DNA of 64,000 nt, from assembly GCF_030013595.1 (NCBI RefSeq), contig NZ_CP122768.1; one strand, 5' to 3'. Numbering within the stretch: position 1 is the first letter of the stretch; every line of letters begins with the position of its first letter. The stretch is from Escherichia coli. Its GTDB lineage: Bacteria; Pseudomonadota; Gammaproteobacteria; Enterobacterales; Enterobacteriaceae. The position numbers were made by a program. Positions 27,001 to 33,000 of the stretch are shown here, piece by piece.

Positions 27001-30000
27001 GGCCTGAAGGGGAGTGACCTGATTATCAGAAAGTCACATTCAGCGTGGCCTGACCGTTATAGCCTTCAGCGCTGTTGCCGCTGACACTGTGGGCATAACC
27101 GGCCTGAACGCCCAGAGTGATATTTTCCCGGACACGGGCTTCCAGTCCGGCCTGCAGGTCCAGTGACGTGCCATTCTGTGACGGTGAGAACGTCATGTTA
27201 CTGCCGGCTTCAGCTGTCCCCATGCTCATGTCACCCCGGGAGCTGAAGGTGCGGATAACCGAAGGCTGTACCCACCAGTTCACCGGCAGTTCACTCACAC
27301 TGTGTTTTGCACTGTCGCGCAGGGTGTCACGGGATGAGGTGCCTTCACCAAAGCTCATATCGTTGTGGCTGCCCAGACGGAAACCGGCACGCACATGTTG
27401 TGCACTGCCATGCCCGAACTTCACATAACCGGCGTTATCCTGGCCGTCATCCAGGGAGAGTCCCTGCCAGGTATACTGCAGTTGTGGTTCCAGCATCAGG
27501 TTGTCAGTGATACTGAAGGGCAGACCGGTTTCCAGTGAGCCCAGCCAGCCCCAGCCCCGGGCGCGGAAGTCGTTATTGTCCGATGACGCTTTCATGCTGT
27601 GGCGGGTTCCCTGTGCCACAATGTCAGCCCACAGGCCGGAGGACGTGTGTACCAGATTCAGGTATCCGCCCAGGCTGCCGGCATCATCCCGGACCGTGCC
27701 GGCGCGGGAGCCGTCATCATCCTTAACATCAACGGAAGAATGGCCAGCAGCACCATATACCCCTGCGGTCACAGACATACCGGCAACCTCTGTTCTCAGC
27801 AGGTCACTCTCCAGACGGACGAAGCCATAGCTGCCGCTGCTTTCCGGCGTGGCCCCACGGGCAATACCGCCGTTGTTATCGTGACCGAGATGACCGCCCT
27901 GAATGCTGAGACGGACGCTGTTATTTTCACCGTTTACACCGGTCTGATGGCTGCGGGAGCCTGCCAGAATCCGGTCATAGTCCATTGCCTGTGTCAGCAT
28001 GGAGGCATACAGGGGGACTTCAGCACGATAAGCATTTTCACTGCGCAGGTACCAGTCTTCATCGCTGTCACGGTTCAGGGTGTAGTTAAAGGCACCGGCC
28101 TGAAGCGGGCGACTCAGGGCAAACGCACCTTCTTCTGTGGTGGCACCATTCTGTGCATCCACAACCCGGATACCCTGTCCGGAGGTTGCCACCCCGAGGT
28201 TACTGTTTCCGACATTTGTGAACGCAAGCCAGGTTTTGCCGGTTGCCTGACCACCATTAATCACCAGCTGGTCAGAGGCATTGCTGCCATCAAGGCGAAC
28301 ACGCATATTGATGGTGCCACCCTGACCGGTGAGGTTACTGGTGGTCAGTTTATGGAACGTTACCGGGGCGTCGCCTTTTGCAACAGCACGGCTCAGGACG
28401 GCATCCTGTGTCGTCTGATTATCAAAGCGAATCTCCCCTGCGTTAACAATATCGCCGGTACTGACCACATCACCATTCAGTACCATGCTGGCGCCTTTAC
28501 TGAGCTGTGTTCTGCCACTCAGACTTCCCCCGGCAGCCAGCGTCAGTGTTCCACGATGTCCGACAGTGGTGTTGCCAGCCTGTCCCCCGGCATTAACCGT
28601 AAAGCTGCCGCCATTTTCCAGCAGCAGGCCGCTGGCCTGACCGGATATGCCATCAATACTGAACTTACCGCTGGCATTGGTCCCCTCAACAGTGGCACCA
28701 CTGTCTGCAATCAGGGCACCACCGGATGTCATGGTGACACCTGTCGCCTTACCACCGGCAGACACTGCCAGGGTTCCGCCGTCATCCACCCGTGTTTTCT
28801 GCGCTGAATGGCCTTCCAGTACATCCAGGCGACCGCCGGACTCCAGAACAACGCCGTCAGCCTTACCGTTTTCCACCGTGAAATTGCCCAGACGGTTGCT
28901 GCCAAGAACCGTTGCCGCAGTACTGGTGACCAGTGCTCCACCCTGTTTCAGGGTGACATTCGTGGCTATACCACCGGCGTTCACCTGCAGTTTGCCTTTC
29001 TGGTTAACGGTGGTGAAATCCGCCAGACCACCTTCCTTGACAATCTGCCAGCCGTCACTGTTTACAACCGTGTCAGAGGCTGTGCCTCCGTTGTGCACAT
29101 ACTGGTAACCGCCATTCAGTGTGGTATCCAGCGCATGCCCGTGTACCGTCTGGTCGCCGCCGGCATAAACCACAGTGGTATTTGCTGTTCCTTCAATAGC
29201 CACAATCTGACGACCATTTTTATTGATGGTGGTACGTACGGCATTTCCGCGAACAAACTGCCCGGTATCACCATTTTCTGCATCCGGTCCCCCTTCCGCG
29301 CCGGTATTCACAACCGTGTCGGTTGCCACTGCGCCGGATTTGACGGCCTGCCAGCCCTTCTCATTAATGACAGTACCCGTTGCAATCCCGCCTTCATGTA
29401 CCCACTGCTCACCGCCGTTCAGAGTGGTGTTCACTGCCTGCCCCTGAAGGCTCTGTCCGCCTCCGGCACTGATAACCGTGTCTGAAACGCTTCCTCCGGC
29501 ATTCACTCTCTGAAGACCACCACCGGTGACAGTAGTGTTGTTGGCGGTACCGCCATTTTGTATCCATTGGCCGCCGGTATTGGCCTCGTTATCCGGCCCA
29601 TACTCCAGCCCGGTACTGATGGTCATTCCGTTGGCCGTACCGAAGACAATCTGGTTGTCATGATTTGTCAGTGTTCCGTCGTTCACGGTTTCTCCCGCCT
29701 GTACAACCGTGTCAGCAGCCAGTGCCGGGACTGATGTGACAGCAGCAAGAGACAGCGCAACCGCCACACCGGCGCGTTTTCCCCGTGAGCGGGCCAGTTC
29801 GGAAGCCACCACCAGGGTGCCCGTAATGTGATTCCATACCAGCCTGTAGCTGGTGTTCAGATGTCGTTTCATCAGCTTTTCCTTACAGAGGGTGAATAAA
29901 AAAGCCGGTACCCACAAAAGTGGATACCGGCAGGTACAAAACAGCATGGTCAGATAAAGTGGTTTTTCCCGGACATAAATGTTTCCCCTCTCTCATCCGC

Positions 30001-33000
30001 CAGAGAAGTATCAGTCCGTTGTGTGCAATTCCGTTCTGCATGATGAAGAGATTCAGCTGCCTTTTCGCAGACCATTAACCACTATAAACGATCGATGGTA
30101 ACGATCGATACCTGTTTTATCGATCGTTTTATTCTATTAACAGCAAGGCAGTCACGCAAGAGAAAGAGGTGGGTATGAGGGGGGGGGGTCATGTTTTCAG
30201 TTGGTTAACGCAATGTAATCAGGCATTTCCCCTGGCAGAGTGTTCAGAAGAAAATCCAGTTCCATACAGCGCGGGCAACAGAGACCACCGAGTCACGGAC
30301 GGCACGCAGAACCGTGCGTGCAACAGAGGCAACACAGACGCTCTCCGCTGTGTCAAATATCCGGTCCACCGCACCGGTAAACTGTTCACGGGCCTGAGAC
30401 CGGACAGATTCCGTGCGCAGCTCGTCCTGCAGGCGGGTCATCAGGGGACTGGGGCATGGTCGGGAAGCGCTGTCATGAGCGCACTGACCAGCGTATCCAG
30501 TTCCCAGCCGGTGCGGGCCGATACGGCCACAACCGGATGTACGGGCCGGAACAGACGGAATACCGCCTCCGTTTTTTCGCGAATATTCTGTGCCTGTGCG
30601 GGAGAAGGCTGAATACCGGCCATATCCCATTCATGGCAGGGCTCCGTTTTGTCGGCCTGCGTCACCACAAACAGCACCTGCTGATGTCCCCGGTGCAGGA
30701 TGTGTCGCCAGAAATACTCATCCACAGACAGGGCGCGGTCATCGGCTTTAATCAGCCACAGCACCAGGTCCAGTTCGGGCAGAATGTCACGGTACAGGGC
30801 TTCATACTCTGCATCCCTGTCCCGGCTCTCGCCCACCCCGGGCAGGTCAGTGATAACCATGCTGTGACCGTGGCCACTCAGACGGAAGCGCCGCACTTCC
30901 CGGGTGCCGGCGTGAACATCACTGACCGGGGTGACCTCCCCCTGAAACAGCGCATTACAGAGTGAGGATTTACCGGCCCCGCTTTTCCCCATAATGCCAA
31001 TCACGGGTTCGTGACTGGTGAGTTTGCGCAGATGTTCCAGGATGTGACGGGAAAGCGAGTAAGGCAGGGAAGAAAGTGGTTTTTCAATTGCCTCAATGGC
31101 ATCAGACGGATTCATACATGTATTCCCGGTGAAAAAAGACAAAACCCCGCGCACCGGAAAGGTGGCGGGGGATTCACGGAGATAATATCTGTCTGAGATT
31201 ATTTAGAATGTAACAGGTAATGAATTACTTCCTTCGCTTGTGTTCAAGATATTTTTCTGTAATCAGCATTTCAAAAAACTCTCCTGTTCTCAGACCGTAA
31301 ACAGTTCTGAGTTCATCAAGCATTTCTTTCGCATTGCTTCTTATATGTATATTAATAGCCTTTTTACCATCACTCCGATATTTGTCTTTTTGTTTTTTTT
31401 GATGCCAGGCATGATTTATGCGTGTTCTGAACAGTTCAATGGTATCAGGTGCCTCTTTCCATAAAGCAAAGGCGACGAGAGAGGCAAGATAATATTCTTT
31501 CGTTGAAGATGGTATGAACCACCGGGTCACCGGGTTATGTACCGGATGTGTTTCATCCTGTTTTTGTTTCAGTCTTGTCCAGAACCACTGACACATTTCA
31601 TCATCGTCAGGAAGGAGCCACTTAAACTTTTGACAAGCGCTTTTATTTTTAAGCCACGTCTGCCTGAGTTCCTCGAGGTATATGCTTTTTGCATTTTTAT
31701 TAATTAAAGCATGACAGGAATCAAAATATGAAATGATTACTTTTATTCGTTCGTTATGGGATGATGGATTATCCGGAAGGTTACTTTTTTTGTAAGTATT
31801 TAACGTTTCATCGGTAACTGTTCGTCTTTTTCTGACTTCAATTCCGTTTTTTATCCCTGATGAATTATGGTTTATTTCCGGGAAATTTGTATGGTCTTCC
31901 TTCGACAGATAAATAGTAGTCCAGGTAAAGAAAGTCGCAAGTTCGTCAGTTTTCAACCAGAGAAAACTCTCTTCAGGCAGTATTGCCTGCCCTGCAATAA
32001 TTTCAAGTTCATTAATTTCTTTGCTGAGAGCTTCTTCTGCAGTCGAACCAAAAACACCAAAAGAATTGTTTGAAGCTTTATAATACTTTTCTTTTAAAAA
32101 CGAATTAACATTTCTGATACAGTTTTGTGGGTTGTCAGGCGCAAACTGAGGGAATTCATTGGGGTATTTGTGATTCAGATATTCGGCATAAAACCGACAT
32201 TTACGGGGATCTTTGCATTTGATAAGCATCTGTTCGTTATTCATTATCTCACTCCATGGCGCCTCTCTTATAACAAAATCGTCTCAATTTTATTTTGTCA
32301 CTAAGTGATTATCAAATGTTTTTGTTGTGATTTGTTTGTGTTTTTAAATGTTTATGTCATGTTATCAGTGTTTTTATATAAAGATACATTGATGTTTTTA
32401 TGATGGTAAAAAATCATATTTTCTTTTATATTCATTGAGTTATGCTTGTTTGCTCTGCATTTGGGGGATGACAGAAAAGAATGGGCTGTGTTGATCACAT
32501 GCGCCGTATGCGCTGTCCAGGTTACAGGGCACCTCAATATTCAGCGTTTTCCTGTTGACTGGCATTGTTAATATTATGTTTTGGTTTTGTTTTATTGTGT
32601 GGTTGTGAATGTTGTGTTTAGTTTGATGGTTGAGAAAGAAAAAAGAAGACTATGATGCACTAATCAGGAAATATTTTCGACGCCGGTTGAGTTAAAAGAA
32701 CAGATAGAGTGGACAGGTGTTGTGTTAATAGTTTACGGCTGACAGTATTCTTATTTTAATAACAGGTGTTATTATTTATAGATTTATACAGACGATACTC
32801 CCGATAAATAGTCAGGTGATGATGGTCGTTGAGTGGTTTTATAAGCTACGTATAGCTCTGTAAGACTTATTAATTCAACGATGACTACCGTTTATTGATA
32901 TACCTGTATTCGGGAAATGTCATAAAAAATGTCACGTTGTTTGCAGAATCTTTTGTTTTTTAGTTTCTGATACGCAATGACTAAGCAGGAGGACTCACTT

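What the first reader, a model, noticed from the sequence alone, without database searches (positions are those of the whole stretch)
29873..30243. Ag43 upstream region carries three GATC sites in 36 bp and a G10 homopolymer
GATC sites at 30090, 30103 and 30122 sit upstream of the Ag43-family autotransporter. This resembles the Dam/OxyR epigenetic switch described for agn43, implying that this island copy is phase-variable. Roughly 60 bp further upstream is a G10 run (30179-30188), a potential slipped-strand site or sequencing-error hotspot lying between the yeeP pseudogene and the flu promoter.
Basis: partly seen in the sequence, partly recalled or inferred. Interest (0 to 1): 0.4.

Follow-up and report, generated by a model that had tools for sequence, protein, structure and literature searches.

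The report
Known Ag43 methylation switch, variable C-run
This is the well-known DNA-methylation on/off switch and leader RNA in front of an E. coli Ag43 adhesin gene, and the nearby run of ten G/C bases is a real, length-variable stretch that lies outside the core promoter and probably does little.

Summary
GATC sites lie at 30090, 30103 and 30122, and a G10 run lies at 30179-30188. They sit between a frameshifted yeeP GTPase gene and an intact 948-aa Ag43 gene on the minus strand, whose ATG is at 29872.

The three GATCs are each CGATCG. Their 19/13-bp spacing is identical to E. coli K-12 agn43 and is kept in 31 of 32 other alleles sampled. They begin at the predicted transcription start and overlap an OxyR-type half-site, where natural variation falls only on the consensus 'n' positions. 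The 253-nt leader matches Rfam IS102/IsrC and ends in a strong terminator hairpin just before the ribosome-binding site.

So this is an ordinary island (pheV) copy of the published Dam/OxyR agn43 switch. Published work already notes three similarly spaced GATCs in non-K-12 alleles.

The homopolymer is C10 on the gene strand, at about -63 to -54, upstream of the -35 hexamer. K-12 and most alleles lack it and have ACACAAACACC instead. It appears to have arisen by stepwise A-to-C changes. About 3% of complete E. coli genomes carry a run here, ranging from C8 to C13, and O26:H11 strains differ in length (C8/C9/C10). It is therefore slippage-prone, but no evidence shows that it controls expression. 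Interest is low.

The parts
27026..29872 (-). Ag43/Cah-family autotransporter adhesin CDS (948 aa, intact)
   Evidence: It is a single open frame. Pfam finds ESPR, AIDA x7, AC_1 and the Autotransporter beta-domain. The best solved relative is 7KO9, at 1117 bits. The homologous CDS is annotated 'Ag43/Cah family autotransporter adhesin' in L027.
29880..29884 (-). Shine-Dalgarno AAGGA, 7 nt before the ATG
   Evidence: Read directly from the sequence. It is invariant in 13 alleles.
29898..29931 (-). Intrinsic terminator in the leader: 12-bp stem GCCGGUAUCCAC/GUGGGUACCGGC, UUUU loop, then U6 (about +195 to +228)
   Evidence: The terminator scan found it. It is present in both the MFE and centroid folds. 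It aligns to the terminal hairpin of Rfam IS102. The stem is conserved, and a U.G pair becomes C-G in 3 alleles.
29891..30127 (-). agn43 leader RNA = IsrC / IS102 sRNA family
   Evidence: Rfam RF00124 matches at 68.1 bits against a gathering score of 46, with E = 6.8e-11, covering model positions 1-206 of 206.
30090..30125 (.). Three Dam target sites. On the gene strand: GATC-I 30125-30122, GATC-II 30106-30103, GATC-III 30093-30090. Each is CGATCG, with G-to-G spacing of 19 and 13 bp.
   Evidence: Coordinates. The spacing is identical to K-12 (GATC at L001 1345/1364/1377). It is kept in 31 of 32 other alleles.
30091..30105 (-). Best-conserved OxyR-type half-site ATCGTTACCATCGAT, spanning GATC-II to GATC-III
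   Evidence: It matches ATAGnTnnnAnCTAT at 8 of 10 specified positions. K-12 scores the same at the same offset. Among 32 alleles, variation is concentrated at the three 'nnn' positions (7, 3 and 8 alleles differ), and all specified positions are invariant.
30131..30136 (-). -10 hexamer TAGAAT
   Evidence: The stretch AATAGAATAAAACGATC is identical in K-12. The hexamer is unchanged in 31 of 32 alleles; one has TAGAAC.
30154..30159 (-). -35 hexamer TTGCGT, with a 17-nt spacer to the -10 hexamer
   Evidence: Found by inspection. It is invariant in 13 alleles. It falls below the threshold of the generic promoter scan, which reported 0 sites. K-12 has TTGTCC at the equivalent place.
30179..30188 (-). 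C10 run (G10 on the + strand), preceded by A at 30189. It lies at about -63 to -54 from the inferred start at 30125. Its length is polymorphic.
   Evidence: Coordinates. Observed states include ACACAAACACC (the majority), ACACAACCCCC, ACACCCCCCCC, AC10, AC11, AC12, C8, C9, C10, C11 and C13. One search gives the length distribution.
30191..30243 (-). Highly conserved spacer immediately after the yeeP stop codon; function unknown; absent from K-12
   Evidence: It has 4 variable columns among 13 alleles. K-12 diverges completely from just after the yeeP stop codon up to the -10 region.
30244..31115 (-). yeeP-type GTPase pseudogene, with a 1-nt deletion between 30453 and 30452
   Evidence: Two-frame translation shows the shift. 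The alignment to intact L027 and L002 genes locates the deletion. Pfam finds MMR_HSR1 GTPase in the N-terminal part.

Best explanation
The interval 29873-30243 is the regulatory region and leader of an island-borne agn43 (flu) allele. It is read on the minus strand.

**Promoter (inferred).** A sigma-70 promoter, TTGCGT-17 nt-TAGAAT, is inferred to start transcription at or next to the G of the first GATC (30125).

**Switch (inferred by homology).** The three GATCs at +1, +20 and +33 lie inside an OxyR repressor site.
- If the sites are unmethylated, OxyR binds, blocks Dam and represses transcription (OFF).
- If Dam methylates them first after replication, OxyR cannot bind and the gene is transcribed (ON).
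- This gives heritable, reversible phase variation.

**Leader.** The 253-nt leader is the IsrC/IS102 RNA. It carries a strong intrinsic terminator 14 nt upstream of the ribosome-binding site. Ag43 synthesis therefore also needs read-through.

**C10 run.** The run lies about 19 bp upstream of the -35 hexamer and is not part of this switch. It is a mutable spacer sequence that grew from ACACAAACACC by A-to-C substitutions and now slips in length between strains. Most likely it has little or no regulatory consequence.

**Shown here:** the sequence anatomy, the homology, the conservation, the RNA-family match and the length polymorphism.

**Inferred:** OxyR binding, the methylation states, the transcription start site, terminator use and the neutrality of the run.
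For: **Homology with K-12.**
- The -10 hexamer through GATC-I is identical.
- The GATC-II and GATC-III contexts are identical in an ungapped alignment, at 39 of 60 positions overall.
- GATC spacing is 19/13 bp in the window and in K-12.

**Conservation.**
- 31 of 32 other alleles keep all three GATCs at 19/13 bp.
- The region is present in 4394 of 5426 complete E. coli genomes.

**OxyR site.**
- The full-consensus score is 13/20, against 14/20 for K-12. Only 24 of 128,000 window positions reach 13 or more.
- Natural variation falls on the degenerate positions of the half-site.

**Leader.**
- Rfam IS102/IsrC matches full-length at 68.1 bits against a gathering score of 46.
- The terminator appears.
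- PMC5389530 states that flu expression is controlled by antitermination of upstream IsrC.

**Gene and mechanism.**
- The gene is an intact Ag43-family autotransporter.
- Mechanism literature: PMC2909390, PMC13337833 and PMC4872104.
- PMC2808357 reports that both allelic groups have promoters with three similarly spaced GATC sites.

**C-run.**
- It is absent in K-12 and in most alleles, including the closest island relative, L027.
- Lengths of C8 to C13 are all found with annotated intact Ag43 genes.
Against: - The left OxyR half-site differs from K-12. In the K-12 register it scores under 6/10, against 6/10 for K-12. OxyR affinity for this allele is therefore not established.
- The generic promoter scan reported no site, because the -35 hexamer matches the consensus at only 3 of 6 positions.
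- No methylation or expression data exist for this sequence.
- The primary K-12 papers (Wallecha 2002 and 2014, Kaminska 2010) could not be read here. The exact start site, the OxyR footprint and the 101-nt minimal region are quoted from memory.
- Neutrality of the C-run is not demonstrated. Tracts upstream of -35 modulate promoters in other bacteria.
Confidence: 0.85

Rival explanations
1. The C-run is a slipped-strand 'contingency' element that tunes or switches flu transcription. Gain or loss of a C would change the distance or helical phase between the conserved yeeP-proximal segment (or RNA polymerase alpha-CTD contacts) and the core promoter. This would add a genetic dial to the epigenetic switch.
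For: - The run is the only long homopolymer in the 64 kb.
- Its length ranges from C8 to C13 among 176 genomes. O26:H11 strains encoding identical YeeP and Ag43 proteins carry C8, C9 or C10.
- It sits at about -63 to -54, near the region where UP elements act (my own knowledge).
- The 53 bp upstream of it are unusually conserved.
Against: - The run is outside the -35/-10 spacer and outside the transcript.
- K-12, where the switch was worked out, has no run and no homologous upstream segment.
- Most alleles carry ACACAAACACC instead.
- Six different spacer lengths (8 to 13 nt) coexist. Where annotation was checked, C8, C9, C10, C11, AC12 and C13 alleles have intact Ag43 genes, which argues against a strict phasing requirement.
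- Each length is shared by many isolates (13 with C8 and 20 with C9 in the sample). This suggests slow change rather than high-frequency switching.
- No paper in the held library links agn43 with a homopolymeric tract.
Confidence: 0.1
2. The G10 run is a translational frameshift switch at codons 2-5 of a + strand gene (ATG 30175, AGG GGG GGG GGT...; ORF to 30612). This gene would overlap yeeP in antisense.
For: - The ORF begins ATG AGG GGG GGG GGT and is preceded by GAGG.
- In alleles with intact yeeP, the same frame stays open for 258 codons.
- Run lengths differing by 1 or 2 bases would put it out of frame.
Against: - The frame is the codon-aligned antisense of yeeP. yeeP has no TTA or CTA codons and only two TCA codons, so a long 'shadow' ORF is expected.
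- The frame is interrupted after 96, 68 and 96 codons in L011, L013 and L023. yeeP in L013 is annotated intact.
- It has no Pfam match.
- No CDS is annotated there in any RefSeq record examined.
- The ATG is lost in the EcN/L027-type alleles, which read GGGTCTGA.
Confidence: 0.02
3. The G10 run, or its exact length, is a sequencing or assembly artefact.
For: - Homopolymers are error-prone on long-read platforms.
- The exact 100-nt combination seen in the window has no identical full-length match among 5426 complete genomes. The best match is 98%.
Against: - The same A+C10 state occurs in an independent genome, 2011C-4315.
- The 11-nt length equals that of the ancestral ACACAAACACC, so no indel is implied.
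- Five substitutions would be needed to produce the run by error.
- Intermediate states exist in other genomes and in metagenome contigs.
Confidence: 0.05

Closest known systems
E. coli K-12 agn43 (flu) Dam/OxyR phase-variation switch
   Same: - The gene order is the same: yeeP, then regulatory region, then Ag43.
- The -10 hexamer through GATC-I is identical.
- There are three GATCs with the same 19/13-bp spacing.
- The half-site ATCGTT-N4-ATCGAT is shared.
- The leader terminator and the ribosome-binding site are shared.
   Different: - The sequence between the yeeP stop codon and the -10 region is unrelated. The -35 hexamer is TTGCGT here and TTGTCC in K-12, and K-12 has no C-run.
- The left part of the OxyR site and the middle of the leader are diverged.
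- The protein is the shorter 948-aa class. The K-12 CDS is annotated at 3120 nt, about 1039 aa.
- This copy sits in a pheV island rather than in CP4-44.
IsrC / IS102 RNA (Rfam RF00124), the agn43 leader
   Same: It gives a full-length match above the gathering score. The 5' end is at GATC-I, and the match ends in the same terminal hairpin plus U-run.
   Different: The central part has insertions relative to the model (41 against 35 nt, and 63 against 35 nt). The score of 68 bits is moderate.
Salmonella gtr and opvAB OxyR/Dam switches
   Same: OxyR half-sites contain GATCs. Methylation and OxyR binding are mutually exclusive (PMC2909390; PMC4856963).
   Different: Those systems have four GATCs in two pairs and alternative OxyR sites that act as activator or repressor. 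agn43 has one repressor site with three GATCs (PMC2909390), and that is the arrangement seen here.
Promoter-associated homopolymer contingency loci (for example Bordetella fim poly-C, Neisseria porA/opc poly-G/C; my own knowledge, not checked here)
   Same: A C/G run of 8 or more bases lies near a surface-protein promoter, and its length differs between strains.
   Different: In those systems the run lies between promoter elements, or between an activator site and the -10 hexamer. Here it is upstream of the -35 hexamer, no activator is known, and most alleles lack it.

Membership tests
agn43-type Dam/OxyR epigenetic switch | Three closely spaced GATC sites in the promoter-proximal region, with the K-12 spacing | tested here: met
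   The G positions are 30125, 30106 and 30093, giving a spacing of 19/13 bp. This equals K-12 (1345/1364/1377). It is conserved in 31 of 32 alleles.
agn43-type Dam/OxyR epigenetic switch | The GATCs lie within an OxyR binding site | tested here: inconclusive
   One half-site scores 8/10, the same as K-12, and its variation is confined to the degenerate positions. The full-site score is 13/20, against 14/20 for K-12. The left half-site is diverged. Binding itself cannot be tested with these tools.
agn43-type Dam/OxyR epigenetic switch | A sigma-70 promoter whose start site and -10 region overlap the OxyR/GATC region | tested here: met
   TTGCGT-17-TAGAAT is present, and the -10 hexamer through GATC-I is identical to K-12. 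The Rfam IsrC 5' end is at 30127. The generic scan found no site because of the weak -35 hexamer. The start site is inferred, not mapped.
agn43-type Dam/OxyR epigenetic switch | It controls an Ag43-family self-associating autotransporter | tested here: met
   Pfam finds ESPR, AIDA repeats, AC_1 and the beta-domain. The closest solved structures are Ag43-family passenger domains: 7KO9, 7KOH and 4KH3.
agn43-type Dam/OxyR epigenetic switch | Mixed methylated/unmethylated states and ON/OFF subpopulations that depend on dam and oxyR | not testable with these tools
   This needs methylation-aware reads or reporter assays.
IsrC / IS102 leader RNA (RF00124) | A covariance-model score above Rfam's gathering threshold | tested here: met
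   68.1 bits against 46, covering model positions 1-206 of 206.
IsrC / IS102 leader RNA (RF00124) | A terminal intrinsic terminator upstream of the flu ribosome-binding site | tested here: met
   A 12-bp stem followed by U6 lies at 29931-29898.
Slipped-strand (simple-sequence) phase-variation locus | A homopolymer long enough to slip, with its length differing among close relatives | tested here: met
   The window has C10. Lengths range from C8 to C13 among 176 genomes. O26:H11 strains with identical flanking proteins carry C8, C9 or C10.
Slipped-strand (simple-sequence) phase-variation locus | The tract is placed where a length change alters expression (inside an ORF, between -35 and -10, or between an activator site and the promoter) | tested here: not met
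   The run lies 19 bp upstream of the -35 hexamer and 56 nt after the yeeP stop codon. The only ORF it enters is a shadow ORF. No activator site is known there.
Slipped-strand (simple-sequence) phase-variation locus | Within-culture length heterogeneity coupled to phenotype | not testable with these tools
   This needs reads or an experiment.
pap-type Lrp/Dam switch | Two GATC boxes about 102 bp apart within Lrp sites, plus a PapI-like co-regulator (PMC2909390) | tested here: not met
   There are three GATCs within 36 bp, and no other GATC lies within 2 kb on either side.

The most novel reading that the evidence does not exclude
The C-run is a second, genetic layer on top of the epigenetic switch. 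In the roughly 3% of E. coli that carry it, slippage between C8 and C13 changes the distance or phase between the conserved 53-bp yeeP-proximal segment (or alpha-CTD contacts) and the flu promoter. This would heritably tune Ag43 ON-level or ON/OFF bias.
Probability: 0.08. Interest if true: 0.45.

Novelty: already known. Interest (0 to 1): 0.15.

Why it matters
Ag43 drives autoaggregation and biofilm formation, and the switch makes any culture a mix of ON and OFF cells. Knowing that this island copy carries an intact switch, leader terminator and gene is useful when interpreting expression or phenotype data for the strain. It adds nothing new about the mechanism.

The one small new point is the natural series ACACAAACACC > ACACAACCCCC > ACACCCCCCCC > AC10 > C8-C13. 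It shows a homopolymer being built by substitution and then starting to slip. It also provides ready-made natural variants for testing whether promoter-distal tracts affect an epigenetic switch.

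Tried and rejected
- **Chance cluster.** This was rejected on the CGATCG context, the surrounding GATC-free 5.3 kb, the identity of the spacing with K-12 and the conservation.
- **Generic promoter scan.** It found nothing. The promoter was instead placed by homology with K-12.
- **Antisense ORF starting in the G-run.** It was examined and rejected as a codon-aligned shadow ORF.
- **pap-like Lrp/Dam architecture.** This was rejected on the number and spacing of sites.
- **Primary papers.** Wallecha 2002, Wallecha 2014 and Kaminska 2010 are not held. The start site at the G of GATC-I, the OxyR footprint and the 101-nt minimal region are therefore quoted from memory only.
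- **Unproductive literature searches.**
  - The 'IsrC'+'flu' search was swamped by word-start matches.
  - The methylome papers found gave no locus-specific data for this allele type.
- **Technical failures.** A first regular expression for tract extraction was too strict and was redone. One Pfam call failed on wrong yeeP coordinates and was redone.
- **Metagenome scan.** It returned only 13 loci. These were useful for intermediate tract states but too few for frequencies.

Full report
**1. Observation**

The + strand has GATC at 30090, 30103 and 30122, and a G10 run at 30179-30188. The neighbouring long ORF is on the minus strand. Its true ATG is at 29872-29870 and its stop at 27026, giving 948 aa with no internal stop. 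Pfam finds the ESPR signal peptide, seven AIDA repeats, the AC_1 autochaperone and the autotransporter beta-domain. The nearest solved structures are Ag43-family passenger domains (7KO9, 7KOH, 4KH3).

On the other side lies a yeeP-type GTPase gene (31115-30244, minus strand). Relative to intact homologues it has lost one G between 30453 and 30452, so it is a pseudogene. On the gene strand the run is C10.

**2. Is it more than chance?**

Three GATCs within 40 bp occur three times in this window. The overall GATC count is, if anything, low: 206 against 236 in shuffles. The bare cluster is therefore not remarkable.

What is remarkable is the context.
- All three sites are CGATCG, and only 17 CGATCG sites exist in the 64 kb.
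- They are the only GATCs between 26863 and 32208. The Ag43 CDS has none, against 7.6 +/- 2.6 in dinucleotide shuffles.
- G10 is the only homopolymer of 9 or more bases in the window.

**3. Anatomy on the gene strand**

| Feature | Window coordinates | Position relative to inferred +1 |
|---|---|---|
| yeeP stop codon | 30246-30244 | |
| Near-invariant 53-bp segment | 30243-30191 | |
| A + C10 | 30189; 30188-30179 | about -63 to -54 (run) |
| -35 TTGCGT | 30159-30154 | |
| 17-nt spacer | 30153-30137 | |
| -10 TAGAAT | 30136-30131 | |
| GATC-I | 30125-30122 | +1 to +4 |
| GATC-II | 30106-30103 | from +20 |
| GATC-III | 30093-30090 | from +33 |
| Terminator hairpin (12 bp) + U6 | 29931-29898 | about +195 to +228 |
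| AAGGA | 29884-29880 | |
| ATG | 29872 | +254 |

Rfam IS102/IsrC (RF00124) matches 30127-29891 full-length, at 68.1 bits against a gathering score of 46. This places the RNA 5' end at GATC-I. The hairpin is found by the terminator scan and dominates the centroid fold.

**4. Comparison with K-12 and other alleles**

The 451-bp region is found in 4394 of 5426 complete E. coli genomes, typically twice per genome, and is always flanked by 'GTPase family protein' and 'Ag43/Cah' annotations.

K-12 MG1655 aligns only in part.
- It shares the yeeP 3' end, AATAGAATAAAACGATC (-10 through GATC-I), the GATC-II and GATC-III contexts, the terminator and the ribosome-binding site.
- Everything between the yeeP stop codon and the -10 region is unrelated. 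K-12 has no C-run.
- In an ungapped alignment from the -10 hexamer, the three GATCs coincide exactly. The spacing is 19 and 13 bp in both, and K-12 has GATC at L001 1345/1364/1377.

Among 32 alleles other than K-12 (18 from complete genomes, 13 metagenome contigs and the window itself), 31 keep all three GATCs at 19/13 bp. One has GATT at site I.

**5. OxyR site**

Against the ATAGnTnnnAnCTAT-N7-ATAGnTnnnAnCTAT consensus, the region scores 13/20, where K-12 scores 14/20. Only 24 of about 128,000 window positions reach 13.

The half-site ATCGTTACCATCGAT (30105-30091) scores 8/10, identical to K-12 at the same offset. Across the 32 alleles, substitutions concentrate on its three 'nnn' positions, and every specified position is invariant. 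This is the footprint expected of selection for OxyR contacts. The upstream half-site differs from K-12, so binding strength is unverified.

**6. Mechanism**

The published agn43 model is as follows (PMC2909390; PMC13337833; PMC4872104).
- OxyR binds the unmethylated site, represses transcription and shields the GATCs from Dam.
- Dam methylation abolishes OxyR binding.
- After replication the two proteins compete, giving heritable ON and OFF states.

[quoted passage not shown] This fits the leader terminator seen here.

From memory only, since the papers were not retrievable: Wallecha 2002 mapped the start site to the G of the upstream GATC and showed that a 101-nt region suffices for the switch.

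**7. The C-run**

Aligned alleles show a graded series at this 11-nt spot.
- **No run:** ACACAAACACC is the commonest state (EcN, PMV-1 and the closest island relative, L027). ATACAAACACC also occurs (O157).
- **Partly converted:** ACACAACCCCC, ACACCCCCCCC.
- **A plus a run:** ACCCCCCCCCC (the window and strain 2011C-4315), AC11, AC12.
- **Pure runs:** C8, C9, C10, C11 and C13.

The states that still contain two or more interrupting A bases are 11 nt long, apart from one 10-nt variant (ATACACCCCC, L006). Among the long runs (A+Cn and pure C), lengths range from 8 to 13 nt. This is the pattern expected if the run grew by substitution and then began to slip.

A query specific to the run-bearing clade matched 176 of 5426 genomes. 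In a 60-row spread, the segment between invariant flanks was distributed as follows.

| Segment length (nt) | 8 | 9 | 10 | 11 | 12 | 13 |
|---|---|---|---|---|---|---|
| Genomes in the sample | 13 | 20 | 10 | 8 | 8 | 1 |

Every case I fetched confirmed that the length difference lies in the run. O26:H11 strains encoding identical YeeP (WP_001069762.1) and Ag43 (WP_000820529.1) proteins carry C8 (FWSEC0001), C9 (11368, SJ2D) or C10 (RM10386).

The run is therefore real and mutable. It lies at about -63 to -54, upstream of the -35 hexamer. It is missing from K-12 and from most alleles. Run lengths from C8 to C13 occur with Ag43 genes annotated as intact. I found no paper connecting agn43 with a homopolymeric tract. 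The most economical reading is a neutral, slippage-prone spacer. A modest modulatory role cannot be excluded.

**8. Rival: antisense gene**

On the + strand the run forms codons 2-5 of an ORF (30175-30612). In alleles with intact yeeP this frame stays open for 258 codons. I reject it as a gene for these reasons.
- It is the codon-for-codon antisense frame of yeeP, which lacks TTA and CTA codons and has only two TCA codons.
- The frame is broken in three alleles.
- It has no Pfam match.
- It is never annotated in the records examined.

**9. Context**

By homology with an annotated relative that is 99% identical over 20 kb, plus Pfam and tRNA scans, the locus lies in a pheV island of about 30 kb.
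- tRNA-Phe lies at 52285-52360.
- A P4-type integrase lies at 50825-52087.
- A BREX-1 remnant is present: brxL, pglZ and a truncated pglX next to a DDE transposase.
- The usual CP4-44-like module (YeeU/CbtA toxin-antitoxin, RadC-like, antirestriction, DUF932) lies downstream of Ag43.
- The island abuts yghD and a truncated pitB.

**10. Verdict**

This is a typical member of the already described family of agn43 regulatory regions. The only undocumented detail is the polymorphic C-run. Interest is low.

Noticed in passing
window 22558-32208 (also K-12 locus L001): There is a strong GATC depletion around the switch. Only 6 GATCs lie in 9.65 kb. The Ag43 CDS has 0 against 7.6 +/- 2.6 expected, and 30126-32207 has 0 against 8.0 expected. 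In K-12 the 3087-nt yeeP'-flu stretch likewise has GATC only at the three switch sites plus one distant site. This could reflect the origin of the mobile element. It could instead serve to isolate the switch from Dam or SeqA acting on neighbouring sites. Neither possibility was tested.
   Followed up: partly
window 30179-30189 and loci L002-L032: The homopolymer appears to have been built stepwise by A-to-C substitutions: ACACAAACACC > ACACAACCCCC > ACACCCCCCCC > ACCCCCCCCCC > C11. Most interrupted states are 11 nt long, and the length range of 8 to 13 nt appears among the long runs (A+Cn and pure C). The window combines the A+C10 tract with promoter and OxyR-box variants (ACTGCCTTGCTG, GTTACCATCG) that otherwise accompany ACACAAACACC (L015, L024, L026). 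This suggests an independent origin or recombination.
   Followed up: partly
window 30191-30243: The 53 bp directly after the yeeP stop codon are nearly invariant across 13 diverse alleles. They are more conserved than the promoter spacer. K-12 has unrelated sequence in their place. No function is known for them, and the terminator scan reported no hairpin there.
   Followed up: no
window 30175-30612 (+): A codon-aligned antisense ORF overlies yeeP, with the G-run at codons 2-5. It is open for 258 codons in most alleles with intact yeeP. I judged it a shadow ORF.
   Followed up: yes
window 30452-30453: yeeP is inactivated by a single-G deletion (CATGCC[G]CCAGT) relative to intact 290-aa homologues.
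   Followed up: yes
window 29904-29931: The terminator stem has a U.G pair in the window (GGUAUCC/GGGUACC). Three alleles have C at that position, restoring a Watson-Crick pair, and the loop varies (UUUU, AUUU, AUCU).
   Followed up: partly
window 39325-52360: The far end of the pheV island holds tRNA-Phe (52285-52360), a P4-type integrase, a sulfatase-family protein and an OMP beta-barrel protein. It also holds a BREX-1 remnant: brxL, pglZ and a 5'-truncated pglX that abuts a DDE transposase. brxA, brxB and brxC are absent. A 99%-identical relative of the Ag43 segment carries a complete BREX-1 system.
   Followed up: partly
window 7230-7262 and 62996-63019: These are two other clusters of three GATCs. 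The second lies inside the 3' end of a CDS (...QQIQQIFNQY*), so it looks like a coding-sequence coincidence. The first was not inspected.
   Followed up: partly
window 19.7-22.0 kb (by homology with L027 9726-11709): In the annotated relative, the island junction is flanked by a C-terminally truncated pitB and by yghD. This implies a deletion of the chromosomal segment that lies between them in K-12. The K-12 gene order is from my own knowledge and was not checked.
   Followed up: no
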